64,000 nucleotides of DNA from an uncultured Candidatus Cloacimonadota bacterium (GCA_964429035.1 CAYSAT010000002.1:26626-90625), one strand, 5' to 3'; positions 22,156 to 41,912 are shown, counted from the first letter of the stretch. Notes: generated by a model from the sequence alone, not told the origin. Program-made: numbers and translations.

Positions 22156-22797
22156 CTATACGGTTTTCGCTGGATTCCCAAAAACCGTCACGCCCGGTTT
22201 GACATCACGGATAACCACGCTGCCAGTGCCTACCGTTGCGCCGTCCCCGATCTTAATTCCCGGAATCAAAACAGCGCATGAGCCGATGGTAACGTTTTCG
22301 CCGATGATACAACCGCCTCCTACCTGGACCCGAGCAAATAGGGTTGTATAGTCTCCGATCACCGTATCATGCCCAACCTGTGTGCCACCGTTCACAAAGA
22401 CCAGAATCCCCAGTTTCACATTAGCAGACAAGACGCTATAGGCGGCCACGATGGATCCTTCACCGATCTGGTTGAATTTCCCGATCCTGGCGGTAGCGTT
22501 GACATAGGTCACAATGTTGGTTTTGGCCTTCAGATGCCTGTAGATCTTCAGTTTCCAGTCCGCCTGAGTTACCGCTATCAGGCAATGGTCATCTTTGGTA
22601 AGTGGGTAATCCTCCCAACTGCCAAGTATGTTGTAATCGCTTGGATATCCTTCCAGGGGGGATTTTCCGCTATTTGTATGCAGATAACCTTGAATATTCC
22701 AAAGCAACGCATCCGCAGGAGTAATTTCAATGGCAGATTCCAGTTCCCGACCAAAGTTCGCTGCACCCACGATGAAGAGTTTTTTCCTAATGGGCAT
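22156..22797 (-). CDS. NeuD/PglD/VioB-family amino-sugar N-acyltransferase
   Basis: 213 aa. N-terminal Rossmann-like KLFIVGAANFGRELE, then an LbH domain with VGHDTVIG (general-base His context) and a VFGNPAKTV end. Confidence 0.8.
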   Translation of the reverse strand: MPIRKKLFIVGAANFGRELESAIEITPADALLWNIQGYLHTNSGKSPLEGYPSDYNILGSWEDYPLTKDDHCLIAVTQADWKLKIYRHLKAKTNIVTYVNATARIGKFNQIGEGSIVAAYSVLSANVKLGILVFVNGGTQVGHDTVIGDYTTLFARVQVGGGCIIGENVTIGSCAVLIPGIKIGDGATVGTGSVVIRDVKPGVTVFGNPAKTV

Positions 22798-23551
22798 TCA
22801 AGCCACCGTCCACGATCAGATTGGTCCCAGTGATCCACCGCGAAGCATCGGCCATAAGGTACACGCAGGCATTTGCCACATCCTGAGGTTCGCCCAAACC
22901 CAAAAGAAATTCCCCGGTTCTTTGAGCCAACTGCTCGCTGTTCAATTGCGCTAAAACATCCCGGACTATATCGGTCATTATTAAACCTGGAGAAACACAA
23001 TTAACTCGCACTTTCTTCTTTGCCAGTTCGATCGCCATTGAGCGAACCGCAGAGATCAATGCCCCTTTGGTCGAGGCATAGCCTGTGACTCCCGCCCTGC
23101 CTTTGATCCCACTTATAGAGCTGATAAAGACGATACTGGAACCTTCCGGGGGAATGTGCCTGGGGTTGGTGACCAACTTAGCAATTTCCAAAGCAGGATA
23201 CAGGTTTACCTCAAACAGTTTCCTGTAATTGTCTATTTTCATTTGCCTGAAGGCCATCGTCAATTGGATACCTGCTGAATGTATAAAGCCGTGGATCTGA
23301 TTGAATCTATCCAATACCAGTACCAACGCGTCATGCAGATCCCCCTCTGAAGTGATATCAACCGGTACAATGAGATGGTTCCCCTCTTTCATTAAGCCCA
23401 AGGTCTCTTTCAGACGCATGCTATCTCTAGACATAAGCGTTACATTAGAACCCCTGTTACTGCACTCGATGGCACACTGCCGACCTATTCCGGAGGAAGC
23501 GCCGGTAATGATTACATTTTTTCCATCTAGTCTGAATTGATCGTGATTCAA
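22787..23551 (-). CDS. Short-chain dehydrogenase/reductase, FabG-like ketoreductase (SDR-3)
   Basis: 254 aa; VIITGASSGIGRQCAIE, YASTK (YxxxK), VNCVSPGLI. The TTG start lies 2 nt after the upstream stop. Confidence 0.85.
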   Translation of the reverse strand: MNHDQFRLDGKNVIITGASSGIGRQCAIECSNRGSNVTLMSRDSMRLKETLGLMKEGNHLIVPVDITSEGDLHDALVLVLDRFNQIHGFIHSAGIQLTMAFRQMKIDNYRKLFEVNLYPALEIAKLVTNPRHIPPEGSSIVFISSISGIKGRAGVTGYASTKGALISAVRSMAIELAKKKVRVNCVSPGLIMTDIVRDVLAQLNSEQLAQRTGEFLLGLGEPQDVANACVYLMADASRWITGTNLIVDGGLNAH

Positions 23552-23552: not shown

Positions 23553-24614
23553 TCAGATCTCCACCAGATCGCTTATTTTAGGATTGTCCAAACGGATTAT
23601 GGCGCTGGCCCAAGAAAGTCCCACTCCAAAAGCGGATAAAAGTAAGGTGCTTTTCCGGTTTGGTAAGTTCCCCGCGAGTTCGGTGACCATGGTGAGCGGC
23701 AGCGAAACGGAGCTAAGGTTGCCAAAACGGTCCAGTGAAAGGGGTATCTTCTCCATCGGAATCTTCATCTTCCTGGAGATGTGCTTGATGATGAACAGAT
23801 TCGCCTGATGGAAAATGAAATGGTCAATATCCTCCACTCCGATATGTGTACGCTCCATTAATTCCCTGATATCTTTAGGCACTTCAGTTATCGTGAAATC
23901 AAAAACGGCCGGGCCGTCCATTCTGGCCTGTTCGTCACTGCGAATGCTGCCGTCCTCGCGTAGTAAAGGTTCCAGTGTCGCGGCAGAAGTGGGATTGCGA
24001 TAAGCACCACCGTCCTTGATTATCGCCTGGTATCCTGATCCGTCTGTGTTAAGGCTGAAGCCTGATTTTAGCTCGGCATCACCCAATCTTTCAACTAGTG
24101 CGGCCGTAGCCCCGTCCCCGAAAAGCAAGGAAGTGGCTCTATCTGTTTTGGATATGTAATTGACAATCACATGTCCATTCACCAGCAGAATCCTGTTCAT
24201 TGATTTGTTCTGCAACAGGCTATAGGCCATGTTCAAGGCGTAAACGAAGCCGCTGCAGCCCATGCTGATATCATAACACATAGTGGACTCAGGAAGCCTG
24301 AGTTTATCATGTAGAATGAATGAGGTTGGGGGCACCCTGTAATCTGGAGTGGCGTTACAGAATATCATAGCATCAATGCTTCTCGCATCGATGTCATTAT
24401 CGCTAAGCAATTTGGCGGTTGCGGAAAAAGCCATATCCGAAGCAACAATATCAGCACTGGACCAGCGCCTGAATTCAATGCCGGTCATCTTGATAACCTT
24501 GTCAGCTTCTTCATCCGAAAAGAAATCCGAGAAGGATTTGTTGTCGGCCACACGCTTGGGGGTGCATGCACTCATGGCTGTTATGGCCACGTTATCATAT
24601 TCGAAATATGCCAT
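23553..24614 (-). CDS. 3-oxoacyl-ACP synthase III (FabH-like), catalytic triad intact (KAS-4)
   Basis: 353 aa; YDISMGCSGF (Cys), FIFHQANLF (His), FGNLSSVSLP (Asn). GAGGAG before the ATG. Confidence 0.85.
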   Translation of the reverse strand: MAYFEYDNVAITAMSACTPKRVADNKSFSDFFSDEEADKVIKMTGIEFRRWSSADIVASDMAFSATAKLLSDNDIDARSIDAMIFCNATPDYRVPPTSFILHDKLRLPESTMCYDISMGCSGFVYALNMAYSLLQNKSMNRILLVNGHVIVNYISKTDRATSLLFGDGATAALVERLGDAELKSGFSLNTDGSGYQAIIKDGGAYRNPTSAATLEPLLREDGSIRSDEQARMDGPAVFDFTITEVPKDIRELMERTHIGVEDIDHFIFHQANLFIIKHISRKMKIPMEKIPLSLDRFGNLSSVSLPLTMVTELAGNLPNRKSTLLLSAFGVGLSWASAIIRLDNPKISDLVEI

Positions 24615-24623
24615 ATTAACTCC

Positions 24624-25394
24624 TCAGTGAGCTGTGTAGCCGCCGTCCACGATCATATTGGTACCGGTGACGAAGGATGCAGCGCGAGAAATCAGATAAA
24701 CGCATGCCAGAGCCACGTCAGTAGGTTTGCCCAGCCCTAAAACCTGATTTTTCAACATGTTTTCCATCGCGTTGGCGGGAACCTTGTCTTCATATCTGTC
24801 GTTCATCTCTGTATCGATGATACCTGGAGAGATAGCATTGACCCGGATCTTTTTCCTGCCCAGTTCCATGGCCATAGACCTGACTCCGGATATCAACGCC
24901 CCTTTGCTGCTGCAATAGGCCGTTTTCAAACCTTCGCCAACCACTGACATAACAGAAGAAATGAACACATAACTGGCTCCGGTTTCTGGATAAGATCCTT
25001 TTTTGGAAAGCAGGCGTACAAACTCAAAACCTGAAATGACATTAATCCGGAACTCTCTTTCGTATATCTCCGGTTTGGTTAAATGTATCGGAAACGTGCC
25101 GCCAATGCCCGCAGAATGGATGAAGCCTGCCATAGCGCCCAGTTTATCGACGGAGTCCCGCACGATGTTTTGGATATTAACATAATCCGAGATGTCGGCA
25201 GCGTAGCTCAGATGTGATCCCGGTTTGAGCAGGGACAGAGTCTGTTCCAGCCGATCCCTGTTTCTTCCGATCAAGACAACGTTGGCGCCATAGCGGCTGC
25301 ACTGGATGGCGCATTCCCTGCCGATTCCGGATGACGCTCCGGTGATCATCACGTTCAGACCTGCCAGGCCAAAGTTGCTTTTTTCGATGTCCAT
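24624..25394 (-). CDS. Short-chain dehydrogenase/reductase, FabG-like ketoreductase (SDR-2)
   Basis: 256 aa; VMITGASSGIGRECAIQ, YCSSK, VNAISPGII. Clear paralog of 22787..23551. Confidence 0.85.
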   Translation of the reverse strand: MDIEKSNFGLAGLNVMITGASSGIGRECAIQCSRYGANVVLIGRNRDRLEQTLSLLKPGSHLSYAADISDYVNIQNIVRDSVDKLGAMAGFIHSAGIGGTFPIHLTKPEIYEREFRINVISGFEFVRLLSKKGSYPETGASYVFISSVMSVVGEGLKTAYCSSKGALISGVRSMAMELGRKKIRVNAISPGIIDTEMNDRYEDKVPANAMENMLKNQVLGLGKPTDVALACVYLISRAASFVTGTNMIVDGGYTAH

Positions 25395-25397
25395 TAT

Positions 25398-26453
25398 TCA
25401 GATTTCCATCAGTTCGGAGCGATAAGTGTTTTCCAGGACTACCAGAGCCGAAGCCAGGGATAACCCGGCGCCGGCAGCGCATAGCATCACTACCTGCTTT
25501 TCCGTGCGGCCCATGCCAATATCTTTAAGCAAACTCAGAACAAAGGCTGCGGAGCCAGTGTCTCCAAAGCGTTCTACAGCATTAAGCGCTTTCTCGGCTG
25601 GGAATCCGGCCGAGTTCACGATGAGGTCGTTAGTTTTCTTGTCAAAGGCGTGAGGAATGATCCGGGAAACCTCATCCGCCTGCATCCCCGCCGCATCAAA
25701 TAACGACATGATTTGCGGTTGCACAGCTGTCTGCACATAGCGCTGCAGGGCCTCGATATCCACATGGCACTGCTCGTCCGAGCGGACGCTGCCGTCAGGA
25801 TAGTTCTTTTCCCGCAGGCTTTCCAAGCTGCTGGGGTTCCGGTAGCCACCCGCGGGGATCATGACGCTGGCGTTTTGGCCCGCGTTGGTGGAAAATAGAA
25901 AGTGGGACCTCTCCGCTGTTTCCGATTTTCCCAACAAGCAAGCGGTGCCGGCATCGCCAAACACCAGGCCGGTGGTCCGGTCTTTGAATGAATACGCCTT
26001 GGAGGCTGTTTCCCCGCAGAGCAGCAAGACATGCCTGACGTTTTTGCTCTGCAGGAGTGAAAAGCCCAGGCTCAGGCCCAGCAAAAAGCCCGGAGGGCCA
26101 AGATTGATATCGTAGGTGGCACAGCTTTTAGCAAAGCCCAGCTTGTGCTGCAGCACATTGCTGGTTCCGGGCGTCTTGTAATCCGGGGTTTGGGTGTTCA
26201 CGATCAAGACGTCGATCTGACTGCGCTCGATGCCCATTTCGCCCAGAAGCTTTTCCGCGGCAGCCTGGCAAAGGTCGGAAGCACAGATTTCCGGGGGCGC
26301 AAGGCGTCTCTGCAGCACCCCAGTCCGTTCAACGATCTCCCTCGCTTCATCCGGGCTGAAGAAACTGCTGTCCGTCAGATTGTTGAAAATCTTGCGGGGA
26401 ACAGCCCCGGCCACTCCCAGGATCGCGGTCCCGTCAAACTGTAGGTATGCCAT
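25398..26453 (-). CDS. KASIII-fold protein with degenerate active site (KAS-3; Cys->Pro, Asn->Asp)
   Basis: 351 aa, full-length paralog of 23553..24614 (GGYRNPSS, DGSVRSDEQ, C-terminal SELMEI). It reads YDINLGPPGF, IIPHAFDKK and FGDTGSAAF at the three catalytic positions. Confidence 0.8.
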   Translation of the reverse strand: MAYLQFDGTAILGVAGAVPRKIFNNLTDSSFFSPDEAREIVERTGVLQRRLAPPEICASDLCQAAAEKLLGEMGIERSQIDVLIVNTQTPDYKTPGTSNVLQHKLGFAKSCATYDINLGPPGFLLGLSLGFSLLQSKNVRHVLLLCGETASKAYSFKDRTTGLVFGDAGTACLLGKSETAERSHFLFSTNAGQNASVMIPAGGYRNPSSLESLREKNYPDGSVRSDEQCHVDIEALQRYVQTAVQPQIMSLFDAAGMQADEVSRIIPHAFDKKTNDLIVNSAGFPAEKALNAVERFGDTGSAAFVLSLLKDIGMGRTEKQVVMLCAAGAGLSLASALVVLENTYRSELMEI

Positions 26454-26465: not shown

Positions 26466-26687
26466 TCAGGAATTTTGCGAGATATAGGCGTAAACTTCGC
26501 CCAGAGTTAGCATTTGCTTGAACTCGTCTCTGGGAATGACCAGCCCGTATTCCTCATCAATCAGAGAAATAAAGGTCAAGTGTGCCAGAGAGTCCCATTC
26601 GGGGTAATCCCTGAAGATGTCCTCGGGTTTCACGGTGCCTTCATCCCTTTCCAGGGCTTCTGTGATGAGATTGATGAATTTCTCCAT
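26466..26687 (-). CDS. Acyl carrier protein (ACP-2)
   Basis: 73 aa, acidic; YPEWDSLAHLTFISLIDEEYG Ser attachment context. AGGAG before the ATG. Confidence 0.8.
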   Translation of the reverse strand: MEKFINLITEALERDEGTVKPEDIFRDYPEWDSLAHLTFISLIDEEYGLVIPRDEFKQMLTLGEVYAYISQNS

Positions 26688-26722: not shown

Positions 26723-28108
26723 TTAGGTATAGAGTACCTTACCAAATTCGTTCCGCGGAATCTCGGCCTGGCAGGATATCTCCACAGCCAAAGACTGGAT
26801 CCCGGTTTTGTCAATAATATGTTTGCGGACCGCATCGACAGAGTCAGCCTTCGTAATAACCAGTTGCAGTTTGTCGTCCCTGCCGGCGCACAGGCATTCA
26901 ATGCCAAACTTTTCCCTGACCATAGTTTCAATTTCATCGAGGCTGACCCTGAGCCCGTAGATCTTGAGAAACCTGCTTTTCCTGCCAACGATATAGTAGC
27001 AGCCATCGGAATCCCTGCGGGCAATGTCCCCGGTGGGCAAAACCCCTTCGCGCTCGTCGCCTTTTATCAGGTCTTCGCCGCCATAGGCATAGCCCCAGGT
27101 AACGTTGGGACCCCGGTAAACCATCTCGCCTGTCGCCGCCATTTCCTTTATCTCACCGCCTGATTCGTCAATCAGGGCGAGTTCGCCGCCAGGAATGGCG
27201 CGACCGATGCTGCAGGTTTTTGTAACCGCCAATTCTGGAGGTAAGTATGCCATCCTGGCTGTCCCTTCGGTTTGTCCGTAGGTGGCATAGAACTTTCTGC
27301 CGCTCTGCTGGCAAAAATCCGCCAGTTTTTGGAACAAGGCAGCAGGGAGTTTTCCACCGCCCTGGCTCAAGGTGTTCAAGTGAGGTAAGTTCATCCTATA
27401 GAAACGCAATTTGTCCAGCACTTCGTAGCTGTAAGGCACTCCGGTAAAACTGCTGGCCTGGCACTCTCTCGCATAAGTCCAGAAAGAACTTTCCGTGAGG
27501 GCGGATGCGGCCAAAAGAACCGTGGCGCCGCTGCAGAGGTGGCTGTTGATAACTGAGAGCCCCATGGTGTATTGCATGGGCAGCGCAGCGAGGGAGCGCT
27601 CTCGTTCCTGAATGTCAAAAAACTCAGCCACGCTGCGGGCGCTGAATTCCAGGTTGGCATAGCTGTGCCGCACCAGTTTCGGGCTGCCGGTCGAACCCGA
27701 GGTCGTCAGCAGCAATGCCAGCTGCGGGTGCAGGGAAAACCCCGGCAAGCCTGTTTTGAGCAGCGCATAACCGCAGTGTTGAAGAACGCTCCGGAAGGGA
27801 AACTCAGCTTTGCACCAATCCGGCGCCCACAGATATCCAGGTTGATAAAGTTCGATCAGTTTTTGCAGCAGCTGGCGGTCCAGGTCCGCGCTAACAAGCA
27901 GAGGGACCAGTCCAGAGGCAAGGCTGGCAATGTAGCCGCTCAGCGAACCAACCGTGTTACTGGCCAGGATGAAGAGCAAAGACCTGGAGCCCACAGCATC
28001 AGCGAAACTTCCGGAAAAGTTGGCCAGATCACCATAACTTAGCTCGCATCCAGTCTCATCGACTGCCGCAATCGCTCCAGGATCTTTTTGCTCAAGATCT
28101 AAGTACAT
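26723..28108 (-). CDS. Adenylate-forming (ANL superfamily) acyl-CoA/acyl-ACP ligase
   Basis: ORF 26723..28228. The start is set at ATG 28108 (MYLDLEQKDPGAIAAVD), 5 nt after the upstream stop. LLLTTSGSTGSPKLV (A3 motif), YGQTEG, GDIARRDSDGCYYIVGR, FGKVLY. Confidence 0.85.
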   Translation of the reverse strand: MYLDLEQKDPGAIAAVDETGCELSYGDLANFSGSFADAVGSRSLLFILASNTVGSLSGYIASLASGLVPLLVSADLDRQLLQKLIELYQPGYLWAPDWCKAEFPFRSVLQHCGYALLKTGLPGFSLHPQLALLLTTSGSTGSPKLVRHSYANLEFSARSVAEFFDIQERERSLAALPMQYTMGLSVINSHLCSGATVLLAASALTESSFWTYARECQASSFTGVPYSYEVLDKLRFYRMNLPHLNTLSQGGGKLPAALFQKLADFCQQSGRKFYATYGQTEGTARMAYLPPELAVTKTCSIGRAIPGGELALIDESGGEIKEMAATGEMVYRGPNVTWGYAYGGEDLIKGDEREGVLPTGDIARRDSDGCYYIVGRKSRFLKIYGLRVSLDEIETMVREKFGIECLCAGRDDKLQLVITKADSVDAVRKHIIDKTGIQSLAVEISCQAEIPRNEFGKVLYT

Positions 28109-28112
28109 TCTT

Positions 28113-28868
28113 TTACAGGACCGTACAGCCGTCCACCCCGATGATCTGCCCTGAGATATAACTTGAGAGGTCGGAAGCCAGGAACACGCAGGCGTTGGCG
28201 ATTTCCTCCGGCTCTGCCAAACGGCCAAACCCGATGTTCGAGACCTTGTCCGAAAAATTGTCCTCCATAACTTGTTTCAGTCTCTCTGTAGCCACCATAC
28301 CCGGAGCTAGGGCATTTACCCTGATGTTGGCGGCAGCCAATTCCTTTGCGGCTGACTTCGTTATAGACACAACCGCCCCTTTGGAAGCGGAATATGCCAG
28401 CTGGCCACCAACGCCATTTACGCCCACGATACTAGACATGTTGATGATAGAGCCTGATTTGTTGCGCGCCATGACTCTGGATACCATTTGTATTAGATCA
28501 ATCATAGCAAACACATTTACATCGAACATGGCACGGAGGTTGTCTTTAGTGATCAAACTCATGAATTCGTAAGTGACAATACCCGCATTATTAACCAGTA
28601 CATCAATGCGGGATTGTTGCTTTCTGATACCGGCCAACGTTTCCTTGACTGCTACGGAGTCAGTGATATTAAAGTAACTGGGTATGATCGTGCCCGGCAA
28701 ATCAGCTGGCAATTCACCCAGCCAGGCATCGACTGAACCCGACACCACATCATTAGCGTAAACAACCGCCCCCTCCTCCGCAAAGCGCTGCGCAATGGCG
28801 CGGCCGATACCTCTTCCACATCCGGTCACCAGGGCGATCTTTCCTTCCAGAAGCCGTGTGCCGTTCAT
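28113..28868 (-). CDS. Short-chain dehydrogenase/reductase, FabG-like ketoreductase (SDR-1)
   Basis: 251 aa; IALVTGCGRGIGRAIA, NNAGI, YSASKGAV, VNALAPGMV. Confidence 0.85.
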   Translation of the reverse strand: MNGTRLLEGKIALVTGCGRGIGRAIAQRFAEEGAVVYANDVVSGSVDAWLGELPADLPGTIIPSYFNITDSVAVKETLAGIRKQQSRIDVLVNNAGIVTYEFMSLITKDNLRAMFDVNVFAMIDLIQMVSRVMARNKSGSIINMSSIVGVNGVGGQLAYSASKGAVVSITKSAAKELAAANIRVNALAPGMVATERLKQVMEDNFSDKVSNIGFGRLAEPEEIANACVFLASDLSSYISGQIIGVDGCTVL

Positions 28869-28880
28869 ATTATCTCTGCT

Positions 28881-29123
28881 CTAATCTACTGTAATGCCGT
28901 ATTTGGCCAGGATATCCTTGCCCACCACATATGATCTGAAGCCCAAAATATCCTCCGGATCCAGCATAATGTCAAACACATCCTCAAGCTGGCTGACCAG
29001 GCTCAAGTGTACGATCGAATCCCAGCGGGGAAAAGTCCTGATCGCCAGGTTTTCATTGAGCAAGCTCTTATCGATCTCAAAAAGTTCCGTAAATACTTTA
29101 TTGTATGTCTCAGTGTGCGTCAT
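28881..29123 (-). CDS. Acyl carrier protein (ACP-1)
   Basis: ORF 28881..29147. I prefer the third ATG (29123, MTHTETYNKVF) because GAAGGA lies 7 nt upstream. FPRWDSIVHLSLVSQLEDVF is the Ser context. Confidence 0.75.
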   Translation of the reverse strand: MTHTETYNKVFTELFEIDKSLLNENLAIRTFPRWDSIVHLSLVSQLEDVFDIMLDPEDILGFRSYVVGKDILAKYGITVD

Positions 29124-29219
29124 CGTCATTCCTTCGTAAAAAAACATCCTGTTCTGGAGTAACCGTCCGATTTACATTTTCCGATGTTTCCAGTGCCTTT
29201 ATCCAAGGCATCCGGCTGA

Positions 29220-30296
29220 TCATAGAACTCCTTCTGCATAGAAGGCATCTGTTCGGATCGGTGGTAACATGGCTCCGGTGTTGATCACAAGATCGGCGCA
29301 AGCCCAGGACAGCCCGGCTCCGAAGCCGCACATCAGCAGCCTGATGTCCCGTTTTTCTTTGCCAGCATAGGTTTCCGACAAGGTCATGGGTATGGAATTG
29401 CTGCTGGTGTTGCCGTAAAGATCCAACGAGACCGGCATTTTTTCGGGCGGGATCTTGATCTTGCGGGCTATTTGCTTCAGGATGTAGATATTGGCCTGGT
29501 GCAAGGCGAAACAGTCATAATCATCTGATGTGGCGGCCAAATGATCCATGAATTCCTTGATCAGTTTGGGCACATCCGTGATAGAAAAACCGAACACCTC
29601 CATGCCCTTCATATTGATGTCGTAGTCTGAGCGCAGAATGCCGTCAGACCACAGCACTCTCTCATGTGATGCTCCCATGTTTCGGTATGCCCCCGACGGA
29701 GTTATTATGGCTTTGAACCGGTTTCCGTCGGTGCGGTGAGTAAAATGTGTGTGACTGTTCTGGTCAGATTTCTCGATGAGAGTAGCCGAACCGCAATCCC
29801 CGAACAGCATGATCATTGTGCGGTCGTGAGGAGAGATCGTTCTAACTGATGTGTCGCCGGTTATGAGAAGGGCAGTAGTGGCGTCGGAACTCGCCAGCAT
29901 CGAATAGACCAGATTCAGCCCGTAGATGAAGCCAGAGCAGGCCAGGTTGATATCGAAACACATGCAGTTGCGGCTGAGACCCAACCTTTTGTGTATGACA
30001 AAAGCGGTGGAGGGAGCCCGGTAATCAGGTTTTTGAGTCACGAAAACCAATAAGCCGATTTTCTCCGGATCAACTTCTTTTTGGGTGATCAGATGCCTGG
30101 CAGCCTCATAACCCAGATCGCCCGCTGTTTGTTCAGGGATGGCCCGGCATACGCTTTTAACTCCGGTCATTTCGGAAAACTTATCCACAGTCTCTGCCCC
30201 GAACGAATCCTTGTAGAAATCAACCGAAAGATCGGTGGTTGGCATGGCCACGGACATTCCAGAGACAGACAGCCCTTGAAAACTACTGATTAACAT
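29220..30296 (-). CDS. 3-oxoacyl-ACP synthase III (FabH-like), catalytic triad intact (KAS-2)
   Basis: 358 aa; FDINLACSGF (Cys), FALHQANIY (His), YGNTSSNSIP (Asn). Confidence 0.85.
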   Translation of the reverse strand: MLISSFQGLSVSGMSVAMPTTDLSVDFYKDSFGAETVDKFSEMTGVKSVCRAIPEQTAGDLGYEAARHLITQKEVDPEKIGLLVFVTQKPDYRAPSTAFVIHKRLGLSRNCMCFDINLACSGFIYGLNLVYSMLASSDATTALLITGDTSVRTISPHDRTMIMLFGDCGSATLIEKSDQNSHTHFTHRTDGNRFKAIITPSGAYRNMGASHERVLWSDGILRSDYDINMKGMEVFGFSITDVPKLIKEFMDHLAATSDDYDCFALHQANIYILKQIARKIKIPPEKMPVSLDLYGNTSSNSIPMTLSETYAGKEKRDIRLLMCGFGAGLSWACADLVINTGAMLPPIRTDAFYAEGVL

Positions 30297-30335
30297 ATAG
30301 ATCCACTCAACAGAAACCCCTGATCCTGTCTGAGT

Positions 30336-31364
30336 CTAAATATCATGGCTAACTGCCCCTTCCGTGTAGAAGTCATCAGTCTCAATCACGGGCAATACGG
30401 CATCGGCGCAGATCGTAAAATCGGCAAATCCCCAGGATAATCCCTCACCCAAACCACAAGCCAGCACCCGCGAGCATTTATTGCCTTTGACATGCCCGTA
30501 ATGATCAGATATTAGCAGAGGTATTGATCCTGCTCCTGCATACCCCATTTGCCTGCTGTTTTTCAATACTTTCTCTGCTGGAATGCGTAATCTGTGGGCT
30601 AGTTCCTGGACCAATCCTTCACTGAATTGAGTCAGGGCAAAACTATCAAAATCTGCAGTCTCTGAGCCACAACTTGCTACATACTCCTGAAATGCCTGCG
30701 GAATTTCATTGCTAAAGAAATCATGTAGCCCCTGAACGTCGACGCGGAGAGAATCTTCCTGATCCGACCCTGCATCTTCTGCTTTTATAAAGCCATTGGA
30801 CGGATGCTGCATTCTGAAAGCTCCAGATGGAAGGATCATTGAGTTGATAGCATTTCCATCTGTGCCAGTAAAAACATGAAGATCATCAGAAATCTGCGCA
30901 CTTTCTAGTAGAAGCGCTGAAGTACTGTCTCCCACTTTCCAATCTGGATACAATTCAGAGGGGGCCATCTGCTTGCTTAGGGTGTCGCCCGTGATCAATA
31001 ATCCATAACGGCAATTGATTCGACTTAGAAGTGATCCTACAATGGCAATACCATAAATGAAACCTGCACCACTAAGATTGATATCAAAAACAATACAATC
31101 TACTGGTAACCCTAACCGACTCTGCAGCACGCACGCGGTTGCAGGGCTGCGATAATCTGGGGTTTGTGAAACAAAAACCAATATTCCGATCTCAGCAACC
31201 GAAACTCCCAGTTCTTCAATCGCACATTGCGCGGCGCTAAAACCAAGGTCTCCTGCCGTCTGGAATTCTGAAACCCAGTATGCGCCTGTTTCACTTGATC
31301 TTTTTTTGGGGATTGCTGAAGCCAGGGCAGCAATTTTTACGTCTGAAATACTGAATTTATTCAT
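30336..31364 (-). CDS. KASIII-fold protein lacking all three catalytic residues (KAS-1)
   Basis: ORF 30336..31466 (TTG). The start is set at ATG 31364 (MNKFSISDVKIAALASAIPKK), which aligns with the N-termini of the other KASIII paralogs. It reads FDINLSGAGF, FALTQFSEG and MGYAGAGSIP at the Cys/His/Asn positions. Confidence 0.8.
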   Translation of the reverse strand: MNKFSISDVKIAALASAIPKKRSSETGAYWVSEFQTAGDLGFSAAQCAIEELGVSVAEIGILVFVSQTPDYRSPATACVLQSRLGLPVDCIVFDINLSGAGFIYGIAIVGSLLSRINCRYGLLITGDTLSKQMAPSELYPDWKVGDSTSALLLESAQISDDLHVFTGTDGNAINSMILPSGAFRMQHPSNGFIKAEDAGSDQEDSLRVDVQGLHDFFSNEIPQAFQEYVASCGSETADFDSFALTQFSEGLVQELAHRLRIPAEKVLKNSRQMGYAGAGSIPLLISDHYGHVKGNKCSRVLACGLGEGLSWGFADFTICADAVLPVIETDDFYTEGAVSHDI

Positions 31365-31478
31365 CCGGTCTATCGCATACCATAATACAGATGTAAATAG
31401 GGTCAACCTTGTTTTCAAAGTTGGACATATGCATTCGCTTCCGCATTCAATATCGAGTCCATACAACCTATCGCTGCG

Positions 31479-33065
31479 TCATATAATTCCGGCATTGGAG
31501 ACACGGGATCCCCGGCGAGGATTGAAAGATACTGTATATGAGAAGGTTGCCATGCCAGGATAGTTGTGATCGACAACATGCATCAGTAGATCTGGCGCAA
31601 CCAGGTAATTGTTGGGAAATATATGGTCGCTGCTGATCCCAGGAAAATTATGGGCGCCGTCAGCGTAATACGAGTTTGTCCCAAAGCAATGGACATAGAT
31701 GCCATTGCCGAAGAAGTTGTTATTTTCAGCTGAGGGGATACAGCTAATAACGCCAATCCCATCTTCATAAAAACCATTTAGCTCAATATCAATATCGTTA
31801 GCATAGAATTCATTGTATTCAATTTCGATTTCTGAAGCGCTGGGTGATACTGCGCTGGAATTGCGGTCAAAGCAATTGTGGGTAATTGATACCGTGCCAA
31901 TGATCGGCCTGACGCCGAACAAATTCTCGCAGAAATAGTTATTGTTGACATTGCCAACAGTTACCAATAACTGTAGAGGATCCCTATTTGCGTAGAAAAC
32001 AGATTCTTCCACTGTGATGCTATTCATAAGGGAGTGGATGCCTCTCAGCCCGTTTCCGGTCATCATAATATTACTGATGTTGCATTGAGTGGTTTGTACA
32101 AGCAAAGCCATAGAACTGGTATTTTTGAGGATAGAATAGCTAAGTTGCAGAGAACTGCCCGCTATTTTAATGCCTTCAACAGCAGAATCCATGATCATGC
32201 CAGAAATGCTGACATTATTGTTCGGATTCAGTACGCCTACAGAATTGTAGGGCATAATAGAATCGATATCTGCAATCAAGTCAATATTATGCGATGATGT
32301 TAGTCGCCACCAGCCTCCATCATTACTGGTTGTCACTGCTCCCTGGAAATTCAACCTGGTGTTTGGTGCCACAGCAATTACTGAACCTGCTTCAACTGTT
32401 GCGGTGCCGAGCACAGTGGTGTCAGTCGTAATAAGATATGTCCTGCCCTGGGCAAAGGTTATATTGTTAGAAACAAGCGCAGGTACTTGCCTGGTTGGAT
32501 ACAAAGTGACGCTTCCCTTATGAATTGGAGGCTGCACTTTAGTGATAAGTGATTTATCAAGAGATCTGGCACTATGGTAGTTGCTGGCTTTTTTAAGATC
32601 ATTATCTCCTTGTTCTACTTCAAATTCCAATATATACAGCTGTCCCCAACCCTGTTTCAAAAACACGAGATTATATGTTCCAACCTCAATATCATTAAGT
32701 GTAAAGACACCGGCCGCGTCAGTAACAGAATGTTTCATGGGGTCCTCTTTACGGTGGTCGAATTCAGTCTCCTGGCTGACGGACACTCCGATCTCGGGAT
32801 ACTTTTGATTGATACGCACAAGGGTTGTATCGAGTTCAGCCAGTTTATATAAGGCTACCGTAACACCGGAAAAATCGCCAGGATCATTGGCGGGATATCC
32901 TGTATCATTGACCAATTGTACATTTCCAGCCAGTGAACCAAATTCCGGCTTGTGGGAGTTACAACTGAAAAGCAATGCAAATGCCACCAGAGTAAAGAAA
33001 AGGGTGGCAAAGGCTGACGCGCGGCGGTGCGTGATGCTACGCTGGATATCTATCCTAGTGTTCAT
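31479..33065 (-). CDS. Probable lipoprotein with CarboxypepD_reg-like domain and right-handed parallel beta-helix repeats
   Basis: 528 aa. Signal peptide with LFSC lipobox-like site (FTLVAFALLFSCNSHK). DAAGVFTLNDIEVGTYNLVFLKQGW resembles a carboxypeptidase-regulatory-like fold. The C-terminal half is repetitive N/G/I-rich, beta-helix-like. Confidence 0.5.
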   Translation of the reverse strand: MNTRIDIQRSITHRRASAFATLFFTLVAFALLFSCNSHKPEFGSLAGNVQLVNDTGYPANDPGDFSGVTVALYKLAELDTTLVRINQKYPEIGVSVSQETEFDHRKEDPMKHSVTDAAGVFTLNDIEVGTYNLVFLKQGWGQLYILEFEVEQGDNDLKKASNYHSARSLDKSLITKVQPPIHKGSVTLYPTRQVPALVSNNITFAQGRTYLITTDTTVLGTATVEAGSVIAVAPNTRLNFQGAVTTSNDGGWWRLTSSHNIDLIADIDSIMPYNSVGVLNPNNNVSISGMIMDSAVEGIKIAGSSLQLSYSILKNTSSMALLVQTTQCNISNIMMTGNGLRGIHSLMNSITVEESVFYANRDPLQLLVTVGNVNNNYFCENLFGVRPIIGTVSITHNCFDRNSSAVSPSASEIEIEYNEFYANDIDIELNGFYEDGIGVISCIPSAENNNFFGNGIYVHCFGTNSYYADGAHNFPGISSDHIFPNNYLVAPDLLMHVVDHNYPGMATFSYTVSFNPRRGSRVSNAGII

Positions 33066-33196: not shown

Positions 33197-34066
33197 TCAA
33201 TCCAATTTCACAATCAGATTCAACAGGTATTCCCCATATCCGCTTTTTCTGATCGGTTCTGCAATGCGGCAAAGTTGATCCTTGTCTATATAGCCTTTAC
33301 GGTATGCTATCTCTTCTATACAGCCAATTTTAAATCCCTGCCGTTGTTCAATGATCTCCACGAATTGGGAAGCCTGCAGAAGTGATTCAAAGGTACCAGT
33401 ATCCAGCCAGGCAGTGCCGCGGCCAAAGACCATAACTTTAAGTTTGCCTGCTTCCAGGTAAACCCTGTTCACATCCGTAATTTCATACTCGCCACGGGAC
33501 GAAGGTTTGATCTCGCGGGCGATCCGGAGTACGCTGTTATCATAGAAATACAAACCAGGTACGGCAAAATTGGATTTGGGGTTCGCCGGTTTTTCTTCGA
33601 GTGATATCGCATTAAAACTCTTATCAAACTCCACCACTCCGAAAGATTTGGGGTCACGGACTGGATAGGCTGTTATTATCGCACCCTCTGGATCTATGCA
33701 GTTGCTCAATCGAGACTGGATATCGGCACCATAAAAAATATTGTCTCCCAAGATCAGGCAGACATTATCTGAGCCCACAAAATCTGCTCCGATCACCAGC
33801 GCTTGTGCCAGGCCGTTTGGTACGCTCTGGATTGCGTATACGAATCTCATACCCAGGTCAGAGCCGTCCTTAAGTAATTTCTTGAATGATGCTTGATCTT
33901 CCGGCGTGGTGATGATCAGCACATCTTTGATACCGGTAAGCATCAATATTGAAAGAGGATAGTAGATCATGGGCTTGTCATAAACCGGCATCAGCTGTTT
34001 ACTGACCGCAATTGTCAGCGGATGAAGACGGCTTCCGGCTCCTCCGGCTAAAATGATACCTTTCAT
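33197..34066 (-). CDS. rfbA: Glucose-1-phosphate thymidylyltransferase
   Basis: [55 protein letters not shown] is the classic RmlA N-terminus. ATG 34066 is preceded by GGAG; the TTG at 34078 in the ORF track is less likely. Confidence 0.9.
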
Positions 34067-34112
34067 TGTGCGCTCCAATTCGTTTTATTGATTTTTGATA
34101 GGCTCATCTAAA

Positions 34113-35198
34113 CTATTTAGTAACATTTAAAAGGATTGCGCAGATTCTGTCAATATCATTGTGGGTAAGGGTATAATAGAGAGGCAAGCAAAGAATCCGC
34201 CTGGAGATATCTTCGGACACTGGGCAGGGCATATATGGTGTTATCTTGATAAAAGTATTGACTGAAGGATAGAAATACCGTCTGGCATAGATCTCGTGTT
34301 GGGCCAAGGCTTCAAGCACATTCAAGGTTATTTTTTCGGTAGGAAACATCACTGGAAAATAGGAATAATTACTGGTCCCGTGTACAATTCTTTGGAATTT
34401 TAGGGAAGAGGAACGGCTCAGCAAAGCATTATATAGGTGATGTTTTTCTTTGCGGTCATTCAGAATACTTTGGAAAGAATCTAGATTAAGTATTCCCAGG
34501 GCAGCATGAACCTCGGTCATTTTGCCGTTGAATCCGTCTTCAACTACCTCCTTGGCAGAGTCAAATCCAAAGAACCTGATTCTATTCAGTTTTTCATATA
34601 CATCCGGGTCATTGGTTACACAGGCACCACCCTCAGCAGTGTTGATGATTTTGGTTGCGTGAAAGCTTGTTGCAGAAATATCTCCATAACTAAGTAAGCT
34701 TTCTCCGTTGACAACTGATCCAACTGCATGGGCGGCATCATAAATCACTTTGAGATTATACTCACGAGCGATCATGTCTATTGTCTCGATATCACAGGGG
34801 TTGCCAAATACATGTACGGGCATTATGGCGACCGTTTTTTCTGTTATGAGTTCCTCTATTTTTCGGACATCAAGGTTCAGGGTGTTTGGATCAATATCAC
34901 AGAAGACTGGAGTGCAAGACTCCCATTTTATTGCGCTGATTGAGGCTACCCACGTAAAAGGTGTCGTGATGATCTCGCCTCTTAAACCCATCGCTTTGAT
35001 GGCCATCTGCAGTGCTACAGTCCCGTTAGTAACTGCTATGATATGTTTTAAACCTAGCACAGAGCATAAAGACCGCTCAAATCTCTGGACCACTGGGCCG
35101 TTATGGGTTAATATTCCGGTTCCCCATATGTCAGCAAGGATTTTATCCAGCCTACTAATATCCGGCAAATATGGTTTGATCACTGGTATCTTAGCCAT
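34113..35198 (-). CDS. DegT/DnrJ/EryC1/StrS-family sugar aminotransferase
   Basis: Start at ATG 35198 (MAKIPVIKPYLP), an 8-nt overlap with the upstream stop. The PLP-Lys context is TSFHATKIINTAEGG. Confidence 0.85.
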   Translation of the reverse strand: MAKIPVIKPYLPDISRLDKILADIWGTGILTHNGPVVQRFERSLCSVLGLKHIIAVTNGTVALQMAIKAMGLRGEIITTPFTWVASISAIKWESCTPVFCDIDPNTLNLDVRKIEELITEKTVAIMPVHVFGNPCDIETIDMIAREYNLKVIYDAAHAVGSVVNGESLLSYGDISATSFHATKIINTAEGGACVTNDPDVYEKLNRIRFFGFDSAKEVVEDGFNGKMTEVHAALGILNLDSFQSILNDRKEKHHLYNALLSRSSSLKFQRIVHGTSNYSYFPVMFPTEKITLNVLEALAQHEIYARRYFYPSVNTFIKITPYMPCPVSEDISRRILCLPLYYTLTHNDIDRICAILLNVTK

Positions 35199-36156
35199 TT
35201 GCAACTCTTAAGAATTCTTCGATCAGCTCAGCTTGTCTAATATTCTGAGCGTACTCAGGAGGCAATAAGCCCATGACAGTGTCATGAAAATATAACAGCA
35301 TATTTCTGAAATGATTGTCGGGAGGAAGAGATATCTCCTTAATCCCATAATCGGTCTCCAGTACGATTGTCGGAACATAACCGGGTGGTGCGGTGAAAAT
35401 GCGATTTGTAAAGATCTTACCTTTACTACCCCATAATTCCAACGAACACTGGTAATGGCAATCAAAACCAAATGCTATTTCCGAAAACAAATCACCTGAT
35501 TTCTGTTTAATAAAACCTCCACCCCAAAGGTCTACACCCGTAATCTCATCCCAATGGAGGCTTGCAGATCCCACACAGATATCTTCCCCCATCAAGATCT
35601 GTGAAATCTTGATCGGATATGCCCCTACATCGAGGAGAGCGCCGCCACCTAATTCTTTTTTATACCTGATATTATTGGTATCCTTGAAGGGTGGGAAGCC
35701 AAACGAACTCCTAATACACCGTAAGTCTCCTATTATCCCTGACTTCACCATATCCAGTATCAACATTAACTGGCTATGGTATTGAAATTGAAAATTCTCC
35801 AACAACACCAGATTCCTGGCCTGGGCTGAATTGTTTAGCCTTCTAACTGCGGATGCCGTGGTTGCCAAAGATTTCTCTACAATGACATGTAATCCCCGCT
35901 CGAGAGCCCGTTCGACCCACTCTTCATGTAGAGAATTCGGCAAAGGAATATATACTGCGTCCAGATCAGAGACATCAAACAGGGCGTCGTAGGGATACAT
36001 TGGATTCGTTTGGAAACGTTCAGCCATATTTCGCGCCTTACTATATGACCTGCTTGCGATTCCTACTAATGTAAACTCCTCTCCTAAGGCAACTAAATTG
36101 GGGAGCATATATCTCTCAGCTATATTGGCACATCCAATTACACCAATGTTGACCAT
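35191..36156 (-). CDS. Gfo/Idh/MocA-family NAD(P)-dependent oxidoreductase (candidate NDP-hexose C-3 ketoreductase)
   Basis: 321 aa; MVNIGVIGCANIAERYMLPNL Rossmann N-terminus and EKSLATT. It lies directly downstream of a 2,3-dehydratase, as in deoxysugar pathways. Confidence 0.75.
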   Translation of the reverse strand: MVNIGVIGCANIAERYMLPNLVALGEEFTLVGIASRSYSKARNMAERFQTNPMYPYDALFDVSDLDAVYIPLPNSLHEEWVERALERGLHVIVEKSLATTASAVRRLNNSAQARNLVLLENFQFQYHSQLMLILDMVKSGIIGDLRCIRSSFGFPPFKDTNNIRYKKELGGGALLDVGAYPIKISQILMGEDICVGSASLHWDEITGVDLWGGGFIKQKSGDLFSEIAFGFDCHYQCSLELWGSKGKIFTNRIFTAPPGYVPTIVLETDYGIKEISLPPDNHFRNMLLYFHDTVMGLLPPEYAQNIRQAELIEEFLRVANG

Positions 36157-36160
36157 ATCC

Positions 36161-41538: not shown

Positions 41539-41658
41539 CTGGCTAAATGGGTCTCCTCGATATAATCTGCTCTTTCATAGGCTACAGGTGTTGAGTGATA
41601 CCCCCTCATTACAATACTGTTAAGTCGCCCGATTCTGTACAATCCTCGCGCAAATACC

Positions 41659-41904: not shown

Positions 41905-41912
41905 ACTATCTC

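What the first reader, a model, noticed from the sequence alone, without database searches (positions are those of the whole stretch)
23553..26453. Active/dead KASIII pair 2, created by tandem duplication of a [KASIII-SDR] unit
Gene 23553..24614 is intact (YDISMGCSGF, FIFHQANLF, FGNLSSVSLP). Gene 25398..26453 reads YDINLGPPGF (Cys->Pro), IIPHAFDKK (His kept, QAN lost) and FGDTGSAAF (Asn->Asp). The two share GGYRNPSS/GAYRNPTS, DGSVRSDEQ/DGSIRSDEQ and near-identical C-termini SELMEI/SDLVEI. Each is followed by a paralogous SDR (24624..25394 and 22787..23551, both ITGASSGIGR-CAI-CS ... FIHSAGI). A two-gene unit was therefore duplicated, and one KAS copy then lost its nucleophile. Pair 1 shows the same active/dead outcome in a different paralog lineage, with different C-terminal signatures. 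That convergence argues the dead copies are functional rather than decaying.
Basis: seen in the sequence. Interest (0 to 1): 0.65.

Follow-up and report, generated by a model that had tools for sequence, protein, structure and literature searches.

The report
Lone dead ketosynthase in glycan-acyl cassette
One of two neighbouring fatty-acid-type condensing enzymes in a sugar-coat gene cluster of an uncultured sludge bacterium has lost its whole active site, although the same gene is active in every relative found. It is probably kept as a non-working partner protein, which makes it a modest, lineage-specific variant of a known theme.

Summary
Gene 25398-26453 (D2) is a full-length KASIII-fold protein with Cys→Pro, HQAN→HAFD and Asn→Asp. 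Gene 23553-24614 (A2) keeps Cys-His-Asn. Each is followed by an intact SDR; the two SDRs are 44% identical.

- **Not a local duplication.** D2 and A2 are 34% identical and sit in separate, well-supported clades.
- **The cassette is old.** ACP–KASup–SDR–KASdn–SDR(–N-acyltransferase) recurs in five distinct metagenomic loci, and the upstream KAS is active in all of them.
- **D2 is a singleton.** About 340 other family sequences hold just two sporadic triad variants (P0192, P0070), and none is a D2-like dead orthologue.

D2 evolves about 2.5 times faster than its orthologues, mostly in the C-terminal half. It is nevertheless intact, its N-terminal half is conserved at near-normal rate, and a second strain shows 5 synonymous versus 1 non-synonymous difference. 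I read it as a retained non-catalytic subunit, with slow decay as the main rival.

Pair 1's dead copy is different. It belongs to a conserved clade of dead KASIII inside a recurrent five-gene module.

The parts
25398..26453 (-). D2: KASIII-fold protein, 351 aa, catalytically dead (Pro120/His268/Asp298). It is the positional orthologue of the active upstream KAS of the cassette.
24624..25394 (-). SDR1: ketoreductase-type SDR, motifs intact; 53-57% identical to the SDR that follows the upstream KAS in L004 and L091-93.
23553..24614 (-). A2: active KASIII (Cys-His-Asn) of the downstream-KAS clade, which carries GNLSS in place of GNTSS; 60-61% identical to its orthologues and evolving at a clock-like rate.
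22787..23551 (-). SDR2: ketoreductase-type SDR paired with the downstream KAS; 46-52% identical to its orthologues.
26466..26687 (-). ACP2: 73-aa acyl carrier protein with the WDSLAHL motif, heading the cassette. It is 63-77% identical to the ACPs of the syntenic cassettes.
22156..22797 (-). NeuD/PglB/VioB-type hexapeptide N-acyltransferase that closes the cassette; 59% identical to the L004 counterpart.
26723..28108 (-). AMP-forming acyl ligase of the upstream five-gene module. The start is probably the ATG at 28108, not the TTG at 28228.
28113..28868 (-). SDR3: FabG-like reductase of the upstream module; 65% identical to the Flavobacterium L089 counterpart.
28881..29147 (-). ACP1: carrier protein of the upstream module; 55-70% identical to its counterparts in L089 and L090.
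29220..30296 (-). A1: active KASIII of pair 1; 60-74% identical to the KAS of L089 and L090.
30336..31364 (-). D1: dead KASIII of pair 1 (Gly/Thr/Tyr at the triad), a member of a conserved clade of dead KASIII.
31479..33065 (-). 528-aa predicted lipoprotein. It serves as a synteny marker, because its homologue sits directly upstream of the ACP in L004/L005.
33197..37510 (-). Genes for the likely acceptor sugar: RmlA, DegT aminotransferase, GFO/IDH/MocA oxidoreductase and NDP-hexose 2,3-dehydratase.

Best explanation
**What it is (shown).** The region is the core of an acyl-chain-building cassette inside a polysaccharide (O-antigen or capsule) locus of an uncultured bacterium from sludge. Its gene order is ACP2 (26466-26687), D2, SDR1, A2, SDR2, then a PglD/NeuD-type N-acyltransferase (22156-22797).
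- The cassette is old and recurs in other metagenomic genomes, where both KASIII enzymes are active.
- A similar two-KAS set in Flavobacterium psychrophilum was proposed (predicted, not tested) to build the 3,5-dihydroxyhexanoyl group that is amide-linked to an amino sugar.
- D2 is the positional orthologue of the upstream KAS.
- In this lineage alone it lost the nucleophile (C120P) and almost every other active-site motif: MDG, VFxF, HQAN, GNTSS and GFGVG.
- It therefore cannot form an acyl-enzyme or catalyse a Claisen condensation.
- It is not a recent duplicate of A2.

**How it most likely works (inferred).**
- D2 is kept as a folded, non-catalytic subunit. The most plausible role is dimer partner of an active KASIII, either A2 or A1. 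Its N-terminal half, which in FabH carries much of the dimer interface (my knowledge of FabH structures, not tested here), is still under purifying selection.
- The condensation D2 used to perform is now supplied by the five-gene module inserted directly upstream (D1, A1, ACP1, SDR3, AMP-ligase). In that scheme a ligase-loaded starter is extended by A1 and reduced by SDR3.
- A2 with SDR1 and SDR2 then carries out the further extension and reduction.
- The N-acyltransferase moves the finished acyl chain onto a dTDP-amino-deoxyhexose made by the RmlA, 2,3-dehydratase, oxidoreductase and DegT genes upstream.

**Confidence.** The figure given applies to the whole statement, including the inferred partner role. 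The descriptive part alone (a dead, lineage-specific orthologue of an active upstream KAS in an ancient cassette) I hold at about 0.85.
For: **Dead triad and fold**
- Triad assignment.
- AlphaFold2 model of D2: mean pLDDT 95.3, pTM 0.93. Its best structural matches are the KASIII entries 3GWA and 4EFI.

**Synteny with active orthologues**
- L004/L005. L006/L007. L091-L093.
- Identity to these orthologues: ACP2 63-77%, SDR1 53-57%, A2 60-61%, SDR2 46-52%, acyltransferase 59%, but D2 only 43-45%.
- All 104 other KAS ORFs in the 88 fetched loci have Cys-His-Asn. So do all but two full-length proteins among the roughly 240 best database homologues of D2 and A2.

**Phylogeny and rates**
- Clade support is 98% for D2's clade and 100% for A2's clade.
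- D2's terminal branch is 0.675, against about 0.28 for its orthologues. Tajima relative-rate chi-square is 17-30 with close outgroups, while A2 is clock-like.

**Signs of retained constraint**
- Over residues 1-180, D2 is 59% identical to its nearest orthologue. Orthologue-to-orthologue identity is 52-73% across 60-residue blocks there.
- Over residues 181-351, D2 is 23-34% identical per block, against 46-59%.
- A variant strain in a run from a separate study shows 5 synonymous and 1 non-synonymous listed difference over 100 codons. No listed change falls at the Pro120-Pro121 codons.
- No stop codon and almost no indels. Neutral simulations give P(no stop) of about 0.002-0.18 for the C-terminal half, depending on how the excess divergence is counted.
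- Codon-position GC periodicity is kept in both halves.

**Parallel with a stable dead family**
- 17 of the 30 conserved sites lost in D2 are also lost in the D1 clade (odds ratio 5.2, p = 0.002).

**Context**
- The upstream module is conserved in Flavobacterium L089 and in L090.
- The F. psychrophilum proposal comes from PMC6519341.
Against: - D2 is a singleton. No dead orthologue exists in 5.8 billion clustered proteins, in 185,579 species-representative genomes or in the JGI metagenome collection. Long-term retention of the dead state is therefore not demonstrated.
- D2 has lost 13 conserved sites that even the long-lived dead D1 clade keeps. The N-terminal half is also mildly accelerated, with about 1.6 times as many unique changes. 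This fits general relaxation of constraint.
- The Fisher test for N-half versus C-half rate heterogeneity is significant for only some of the orthologue and outgroup combinations (p = 0.01-0.4).
- The synonymous excess rests on six listed differences in low-depth 151-nt contigs, and these cover only the N-terminal half.
- Selection against polar effects on the downstream genes could keep the ORF open without any function for the protein.
- Heterodimer formation, the hand-over between the two modules and the product are all untested. Loci L077 and L059 combine a partial, ligase-containing form of the module (no dead KAS) with an active standard KAS, so co-occurrence does not force inactivation.
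- The high AlphaFold confidence is driven by the alignment and does not prove that D2 folds.
Confidence: 0.5

Rival explanations
1. D2 is a relic in slow decay. Once the upstream module (or a ligase-supplied starter) made the first condensation redundant, selection on D2 relaxed. The active site went first, and the gene has simply not yet acquired a stop codon or a deletion.
For: - D2 is unique among roughly 340 family members.
- Its rate is about 2.5 times that of its orthologues.
- It has changed at 33% of the most conserved sites, against 2-4% in active orthologues.
- It has lost 13 sites that the stable dead clade retains.
- Under the smaller estimates of excess divergence, the chance of seeing no stop is 0.05-0.18, which does not exclude neutrality.
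- Sporadic single-site triad variants occur elsewhere in the family: P0192 (Cys to Phe) and P0070.
Against: - The N-terminal half evolves at a near-normal rate.
- Changes are still rarer at conserved sites: 0.62 of sites changed in the least conserved class with adequate counts, falling to 0.33 in the most conserved.
- Two strains differ by 5 synonymous and 1 non-synonymous listed change.
- D2 has the same length as its orthologues, with almost no indels, despite very deep divergence in the C-terminal half.
- From general knowledge, bacterial pseudogenes are usually deleted quickly.
Confidence: 0.3
2. D2 has a new catalytic activity that uses the retained His268 and the new Asp298. Examples would be decarboxylating malonyl-ACP to prime the chain, as KSQ or chain-length-factor proteins do, or acting as a hydrolase or acyltransferase.
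For: - His268 is kept while the D1 clade mostly loses this His.
- From general knowledge, His-Asp pairs occur in KASIII-like acyltransferases of the CerJ and DpsC type.
- P0070 in the same family also has Asn to Asp.
Against: - No nucleophile remains, because Pro-Pro replaces Cys-Ser.
- The residues around the His and the pocket are also lost: HQAN to HAFD, Phe213 to Gln, Phe304 to Ala, and GNTSS to GDTGS.
- No conserved family shares the Pro-His-Asp pattern, which a new enzyme activity under selection would be expected to produce.
Confidence: 0.08
3. One reading: a [KASIII-SDR] unit was duplicated in tandem in this lineage, and one KAS copy then lost its nucleophile.
For: - The gene order is KAS-SDR-KAS-SDR.
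- SDR1 and SDR2 are 44% identical and closer to each other than to SDR3.
- D2's best match within the window is A2.
Against: - D2 and A2 are 34% identical. Each has closer relatives in other genomes: 44-45% for D2 and 60-62% for A2.
- They fall in separate clades with 98% and 100% bootstrap support, and each clade includes members from other loci.
- The same four-gene order, with both KAS active, is present in L004/L005 and L091-L093.
- The SDR tree shows the same orthologue pairing.
Confidence: 0.05

Closest known systems
Flavobacterium psychrophilum O-polysaccharide side-chain genes wfpC-wfpG (two 3-ketoacyl-ACP synthases, ACP, ketoreductase, PglD homologue), proposed to make 3,5-dihydroxyhexanoyl on Qui2NAc4N (PMC6519341)
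   Same: - A dedicated ACP, two KASIII-type synthases, SDR reductase(s) and a PglD/NeuD-type N-acyltransferase, all inside a polysaccharide locus with a DegT aminotransferase.
- The family is overwhelmingly from Bacteroidota and allied groups.
   Different: - Here the upstream synthase is catalytically dead.
- There are two reductases in the cassette plus a third in an added ligase-containing module.
- The acceptor-sugar genes point to a dTDP 2,3-dehydratase pathway rather than UDP-bacillosamine.
- The product is unknown. The wfp pathway is itself a prediction, not a tested function.
PqsB/PqsC heterodimer of Pseudomonas aeruginosa (FabH-like pair; PqsB lacks the catalytic residues; PDB 5DWZ, 6ESZ)
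   Same: - A dead KASIII-fold protein is encoded next to an active one in the same operon.
- PqsC appears among the sequence matches of A2.
   Different: - PqsB is conserved as a dead subunit wherever the system occurs, whereas D2 is a one-off.
- No evidence for a heterodimer here.
- Sequence similarity to PqsC is only at family level.
- The properties of PqsB are cited from my own knowledge.
Ketosynthase / chain-length-factor (KSα/KSβ) heterodimers of type II polyketide synthases
   Same: The logic is the same: an active condensing enzyme is paired with a paralogue that lacks the Cys, together with a discrete ACP and ketoreductases.
   Different: - These belong to the KASI/II branch of the thiolase superfamily, not KASIII.
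- The chain-length factor has a conserved Gln and a defined role in decarboxylation and chain-length control.
- D2 has Pro and no conserved signature.
The D1-type clade of dead KASIII in the module dead-KAS, KAS, ACP, SDR, AMP-ligase (window 26723-31364; Flavobacterium L089; L090)
   Same: - Same fold and same locus.
- The sets of lost active-site positions overlap: 17 of the 30 sites lost in D2.
   Different: - D1-type proteins form a 100%-bootstrap clade and are conserved with their active partner across genera.
- D2 belongs to a different sub-family and has no dead relatives.
Burkholderia KASIII-like proteins 4EFI and 3GWA (structural-genomics entries)
   Same: - Best sequence matches for D2: E = 3e-43 and 6e-40.
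- Best structural matches for D2: TM-scores 0.87-0.92.
   Different: They keep the Cys-His-Asn triad. Their physiological roles are not stated in the entries.

Membership tests
Catalytically competent KASIII / FabH | Thiolase-type KASIII fold (Pfam ACP_syn_III plus ACP_syn_III_C) | tested here: met
   Pfam scores are 54.9 and 49.6 bits, both above the cut-offs. The AlphaFold2 model has pLDDT 95.3 and its top Foldseek hits are KASIII structures.
Catalytically competent KASIII / FabH | Nucleophilic Cys at the FabH Cys112 position | tested here: not met
   Pro120, encoded by CCT, followed by Pro121.
Catalytically competent KASIII / FabH | His244 and Asn274 equivalents for decarboxylation and condensation | tested here: not met
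   The His is kept, but Asn is replaced by Asp. The flanking HQAN and GNTSS motifs have become HAFD and GDTGS.
Catalytically competent KASIII / FabH | Score above the curated NCBIfam FabH cut-offs | tested here: not met
   D2 scores 165.4 bits against a cut-off of 249 (NF006829). A2 scores 241.8, just under the cut-off.
Non-catalytic KASIII-like partner subunit (PqsB-like pseudo-ketosynthase) | Loss of catalytic residues with the fold retained | tested here: met
Non-catalytic KASIII-like partner subunit (PqsB-like pseudo-ketosynthase) | Encoded in the same operon as an active paralogue | tested here: met
   D2 and A2 are separated only by SDR1, with gaps of 3 and 9 nt. All genes are on the minus strand.
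Non-catalytic KASIII-like partner subunit (PqsB-like pseudo-ketosynthase) | Dead state conserved among orthologues (long-term retention) | tested here: not met
   All orthologues found are active. The only support is a closely related strain variant that appears to keep Pro120-Pro121.
Non-catalytic KASIII-like partner subunit (PqsB-like pseudo-ketosynthase) | Physical heterodimer with the active enzyme | not testable with these tools
   Only single chains from the window can be modelled here. This needs multimer modelling or co-purification.
Glycan N-acyl side-chain cassette (wfpC-G type) | Dedicated ACP with the phosphopantetheine-site DSL motif | tested here: met
   ACP2 at 26466-26687 has WDSLAHL and is 63-77% identical to the ACPs of the syntenic cassettes.
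Glycan N-acyl side-chain cassette (wfpC-G type) | KASIII plus SDR ketoreductase genes adjacent to the ACP | tested here: met
Glycan N-acyl side-chain cassette (wfpC-G type) | PglD/NeuD-family N-acyltransferase and a sugar aminotransferase in the same polysaccharide locus | tested here: met
   TIGR03570 matches at E = 1.4e-45, scoring 155.4 bits against a cut-off of 160.8, so just under it. DegT aminotransferases, a flippase and glycosyltransferases are present.
Glycan N-acyl side-chain cassette (wfpC-G type) | Product is a short hydroxyacyl group amide-linked to an amino sugar | not testable with these tools
   This needs the chemical structure of the glycan.
KASIII-like acyltransferases with a Cys/Ser-His-Asp triad (CerJ / DpsC type) | Cys or Ser nucleophile together with His and Asp | tested here: not met
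   His and Asp are present, but the nucleophile position is Pro. The family definition comes from my own knowledge.

The most novel reading that the evidence does not exclude
Dead KASIII proteins are obligate non-catalytic partners of active KASIII enzymes in glycan side-chain synthesis. They would set starter choice or chain length much as chain-length factors do in type II polyketide synthases. D2 would then be a newly arisen second example, caught soon after an active subunit of a native KASup-KASdn heterodimer turned into a pseudo-enzyme. The conserved D1 clade would be the established example.
Probability: 0.2. Interest if true: 0.6.

Novelty: new variant of a known kind. Interest (0 to 1): 0.35.

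Why it matters
Dedicated ACP, KASIII and ketoreductase cassettes decorate bacterial surface sugars with short hydroxyacyl groups that shape serotype and antigenicity. They are common in Bacteroidota and allied groups, yet almost unstudied biochemically.

This locus is a natural experiment. The same cassette exists with an active upstream synthase in at least five other loci and with a dead one here, next to an added module that carries its own conserved dead synthase. If D2 proves to be a needed partner, it would show how a pseudo-enzyme arises from an active subunit. It would also suggest that KASIII enzymes in these cassettes work as heterodimers.

If D2 is merely decaying, the finding is an ordinary case of redundancy after module gain. 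The more general lead is the conserved D1-type clade of dead KASIII, for which I found no published description.

Tried and rejected
1. **Recent tandem duplication.** Rejected by pairwise identities, NJ trees with bootstrap, and synteny.
2. **Assembly or sequencing error at the Cys codon.** Rejected. D2 is identical in two runs, and the change needs at least two substitutions.
3. **D2 as a chimera whose C-terminal half came from another family.**
   - BLAST of each half against all fetched sequences found nothing closer than about 35% identity for the C-terminal half.
   - An exhaustive HMMER search of the C-terminal half against 1.84 billion representatives found nothing closer than about 32%.
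   - The one strong hit, P0361, is a spurious tandem-repeat ORF.
4. **Search for dead orthologues of D2.** None was found in the protein database, the species-representative genomes, the JGI metagenome collection or public sequencing runs. Only the same strain and one close variant turned up.
5. **ORF intactness as proof of selection.** Simulation shows it is only suggestive: P = 0.002-0.18, with indels not modelled.
6. **N-half versus C-half rate heterogeneity.** The trend is strong, but the Fisher test is not consistently significant.
7. **GC3 as a sign of foreign origin.**
   - D2 has the highest GC3 among the cassette and upstream-module genes (0.68) and is closest to the flanking core genes.
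   - The signal is not decisive.
8. **Literature on dead KASIII in glycan loci.** Two searches found nothing specific.
10. **Codon-based dN/dS against orthologues.** Not attempted, because synonymous sites are saturated at 44% amino-acid identity.


Full report
**1. What is in the sequence**

All genes from about 38 kb down to 13 kb lie on the minus strand and are tightly packed. In transcription order the relevant block is as follows.

| Coordinates | Label | Gene |
|---|---|---|
| 31479-33065 | – | 528-aa predicted lipoprotein |
| 30336-31364/31466 | D1 | dead KASIII |
| 29220-30296 | A1 | active KASIII |
| 28881-29147 | ACP1 | acyl carrier protein |
| 28113-28868 | SDR3 | FabG-like reductase |
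| 26723-28108/28228 | – | AMP-forming ligase |
| 25398-26453 | D2 | dead KASIII |
| 24624-25394 | SDR1 | reductase |
| 23553-24614 | A2 | active KASIII |
| 22787-23551 | SDR2 | reductase |
| 22156-22797 | – | NeuD/PglB/VioB-type hexapeptide acyltransferase |

These assignments rest. Upstream lie RmlA, a DegT aminotransferase, a GFO/IDH/MocA oxidoreductase, an NDP-hexose 2,3-dehydratase and a flippase. Downstream lie glycosyltransferases, MBOAT acyltransferases and further sugar-modifying genes. This is a polysaccharide locus. Its G+C content (35-54%) is lower than that of the flanking core genes (55-58%). The source is a sludge metagenome.

**2.

- Alignment to solved KASIII structures and to E. 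coli FabH puts D2 Pro120, His268 and Asp298 at Cys112, His244 and Asn274. A2 has Cys, His and Asn there.
- D2 also differs from the family at almost every other active-site motif. MDG becomes VDI, VFxF becomes LQRY, HQAN becomes HAFD, GNTSSVSIP becomes GDTGSAAFV, and GFGVGLS becomes AAGAGLS.
- The Pro-Pro codons are CCT CCG, and the gene is identical in two independent runs. This is not an error.
- Both SDRs keep their cofactor-binding and YxxxK motifs and are 44% identical.

**3. The pair was not created here**

- D2 and A2 are 34% identical. A2 is actually closer to A1, at 40%.
- D2's best database relatives are active enzymes at 43-45% identity. A2 has relatives at 56-62%.
- Context look-ups and a metagenome scan recovered five distinct loci with the same cassette.
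  - L004/L005 and L091, L092, L093 have ACP, KASup, SDR1, KASdn, SDR2. In L004/L005 the same 213-aa acyltransferase follows.
  - L006/L007 has ACP, KASup, KASdn, SDR2.
- Identity to the window genes is ACP2 63-77%, SDR1 53-57%, A2 60-61%, SDR2 46-52% and acyltransferase 59%, but D2 only 43-45%.
- In every one of these loci the upstream KAS has the intact DxNLGCSGF, HQAN and GNTSS motifs.
- NJ trees with 100 bootstraps place D2 in a 98% clade of upstream and single-cassette KAS. They place A2 in a 100% clade of downstream KAS, which carries a GNLSS signature. The SDR tree pairs SDR1 with L004-SDR1 (100%) and SDR2 with the L004 and L006 SDR2 (88%).
- Any [KAS-SDR] unit duplication therefore predates the divergence of these genomes. 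Only the inactivation is lineage-specific.
- The common form of the family is a single ACP, KAS, SDR, PglD-like acyltransferase and DegT cassette. It was found in most of the 80 species-representative loci, nearly all from Bacteroidota and allied groups.
- Two-KAS loci are frequent, and both copies were always active.

**4. D2 is a singleton**

- All 104 other KAS ORFs in the 88 fetched loci have Cys-His-Asn. Among roughly 240 database homologues of D2 and A2, only two full-length proteins depart from it.
- These two are P0192 (Cys to Phe) and P0070 (Cys-Pro-Asp). Neither resembles D2.
- An exhaustive search with the C-terminal half alone found nothing closer than about 32% identity, which rules out a donor family for that half.

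**5. Decaying or retained?**

D2's terminal branch is 0.675 substitutions per site, against about 0.28 for its orthologues. With close outgroups, Tajima tests give 79-91 unique changes in D2 against 31-37 in the orthologue (chi-square 17-30). A2 is clock-like.

The acceleration is concentrated in residues 181-351. There, identity to the nearest orthologue is 23-34% per block, where orthologues share 46-59%. Residues 1-180 are 59% identical overall, within the orthologue range of 52-73%. The N-terminal half still shows a mild excess of unique changes (about 1.6 times), and the heterogeneity test is significant only in some comparisons.

At sites conserved in at least 90% of the family, D2 has changed at 33%, against 2-4% in active orthologues. 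Changes are nevertheless still rarer at conserved than at variable sites (0.33 against 0.62).

Of 70 sites conserved across both active sub-families, D2 has lost 30. Seventeen of these are also lost in the D1 clade (odds ratio 5.2, p = 0.002). Thirteen are lost in D2 only.

The ORF has the orthologues' length with almost no indels. Under strict neutrality, the chance that the C-terminal half stays free of stops is about 0.15-0.18 for 40 excess replacements. It falls to 0.05 for 60, 0.01 for 80 and about 0.002 for 95.

A low-depth variant in a run from a separate study covers codons 31-81 and 107-157. It shows five synonymous and one non-synonymous (K137E) listed difference, with no listed change at codons 120-121. 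By my own binomial estimate, if about a quarter of random changes were synonymous, five or more of six would occur with a probability of about 0.005.

AlphaFold2 predicts a confident KASIII fold (pLDDT 95.3), though that confidence comes from the alignment.

Taken together, the evidence favours continued purifying selection on at least the N-terminal half, and so a retained protein. It does not exclude slow decay.

**6. Pair 1 is a different kind of case**

- D1 sits in a 100%-bootstrap clade made up of dead KASIII with Gly, Ala, Ser or Asn at the Cys position.
- The module dead-KAS, KAS, ACP, SDR, AMP-ligase recurs in a Flavobacterium genome (L089). Identities to the window there are KAS 60%, ACP 55%, SDR 65%, ligase 53% and dead KAS 38%.
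- It also recurs in L090: KAS 74%, ACP 70%, dead KAS 47%.
- That is long-term retention of a pseudo-enzyme. It does not transfer automatically to D2.
- Relative to L004, where the lipoprotein gene abuts the ACP, the window carries this five-gene module as an insertion between the lipoprotein gene and ACP2.

**7. Mechanism proposed**

Shown:
- D2 cannot catalyse acyl transfer or condensation.
- It is embedded in an otherwise conserved, intact cassette that is transcribed with an added module.

Inferred:
- The added module now supplies the first extension and reduction. A ligase-loaded starter would be extended by A1 (with D1) and reduced by SDR3.
- D2 persists as a non-catalytic partner or scaffold, most plausibly of A2.
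- A2 with SDR1 and SDR2 extends and reduces the chain.
- The acyltransferase moves the chain onto an amino-deoxyhexose.
- The F. psychrophilum precedent is itself a prediction: two KAS, an ACP, a reductase and a PglD homologue proposed to make 3,5-dihydroxyhexanoyl (PMC6519341).
- Loci L077 and L059 show that a ligase-containing module can coexist with an active standard KAS. Redundancy is therefore a plausible cause of D2's death, not a proven one.

**8. Comparison with known systems, and novelty**

D2 works like the dead subunits of PqsBC or the KS-CLF pairs. It fails the membership feature of a conserved dead state, and heterodimer formation cannot be tested here. It is not a CerJ or DpsC-type acyltransferase, because it has no nucleophile.

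The cassette belongs to the known but little-studied glycan N-acyl side-chain kind. I rate the finding a new variant of a known kind, of moderate interest. The broader lead is the D1-type clade of dead KASIII, for which two literature searches found no description.

Noticed in passing
It is 63-77% identical to the ACPs that head the syntenic cassettes, so the cassette has its own carrier protein separate from ACP1.
   Followed up: yes
window 26723-31364; L089 8001-12559; L090 57-2699: D1 belongs to a 100%-bootstrap clade of dead KASIII. The five-gene module dead-KAS, KAS, ACP, SDR, AMP-ligase is conserved in a Flavobacterium genome and in another metagenomic contig. I found no published description of it.
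   Followed up: partly
window 44281-45660 and 46292-48361: GatD-like (asparaginase plus GatD_N domains) and GatE/GatB_N-like genes, which from my own knowledge are typical of archaea. They sit beside proteins with type IX secretion C-terminal sorting domains (52820-55333, 61003-63912). This is an unusual combination and a hint about the host lineage.
   Followed up: no
window 28108-28228, 31364-31466, 28881-29147: Several mechanical ORF starts are probably too far upstream.
- The ligase TTG at 28228 overlaps SDR3; an ATG at 28108 gives 461 aa, matching the 463-aa orthologues.
- D1 may start at the ATG at 31364.
- ACP1 is 88 aa, against 79-80 aa in its orthologues.
   Followed up: partly
proteins P0192 and P0070 (homologues): There are sporadic triad variants elsewhere in the family. 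P0192 has Cys to Phe with everything else intact. P0070 keeps the Cys but has His to Pro and Asn to Asp (FGDTGGST, reminiscent of D2's FGDTGSAA).
   Followed up: no
window 23553-24614; L004 10001-11068; L006 10001-11068; L091-L093: The downstream-KAS clade, including A2, carries GNLSS instead of the family's GNTSS next to the catalytic Asn. This may be a marker of a different primer specificity.
   Followed up: no
window 29516-29952 (A1), run X2: The second sludge run holds contigs of a co-existing strain that differs from the window in A1. Many of the differences are spaced three bases apart, the pattern expected of third codon positions, though I did not check the reading frame.
   Followed up: no
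window 40147-44233: A second acyl-activating set lies upstream of the flippase: an AMP-binding enzyme (42701-44233), a GNAT acetyltransferase (41913-42695) and an MBOAT (40147-41538). A further MBOAT and a DUF1574-like pair lie at 14656-16945. The latter arrangement is also seen next to the module in Flavobacterium L089.
   Followed up: no
window 25398-26453 compared with neighbouring genes: D2 has the highest third-position G+C among the cassette and upstream-module genes (0.68, against 0.53-0.58 for SDR1, A2 and SDR2). It is close to the flanking core genes (0.67-0.80). The reason is unexplained.
   Followed up: partly
L077 7783-9767 (Alistipes sp. CAG:831): Two tandem paralogous 328-aa ORFs of unknown family sit between the ligase-module KAS and a second ACP-KAS-SDR cassette. 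They are not KASIII-like by BLAST.
   Followed up: no
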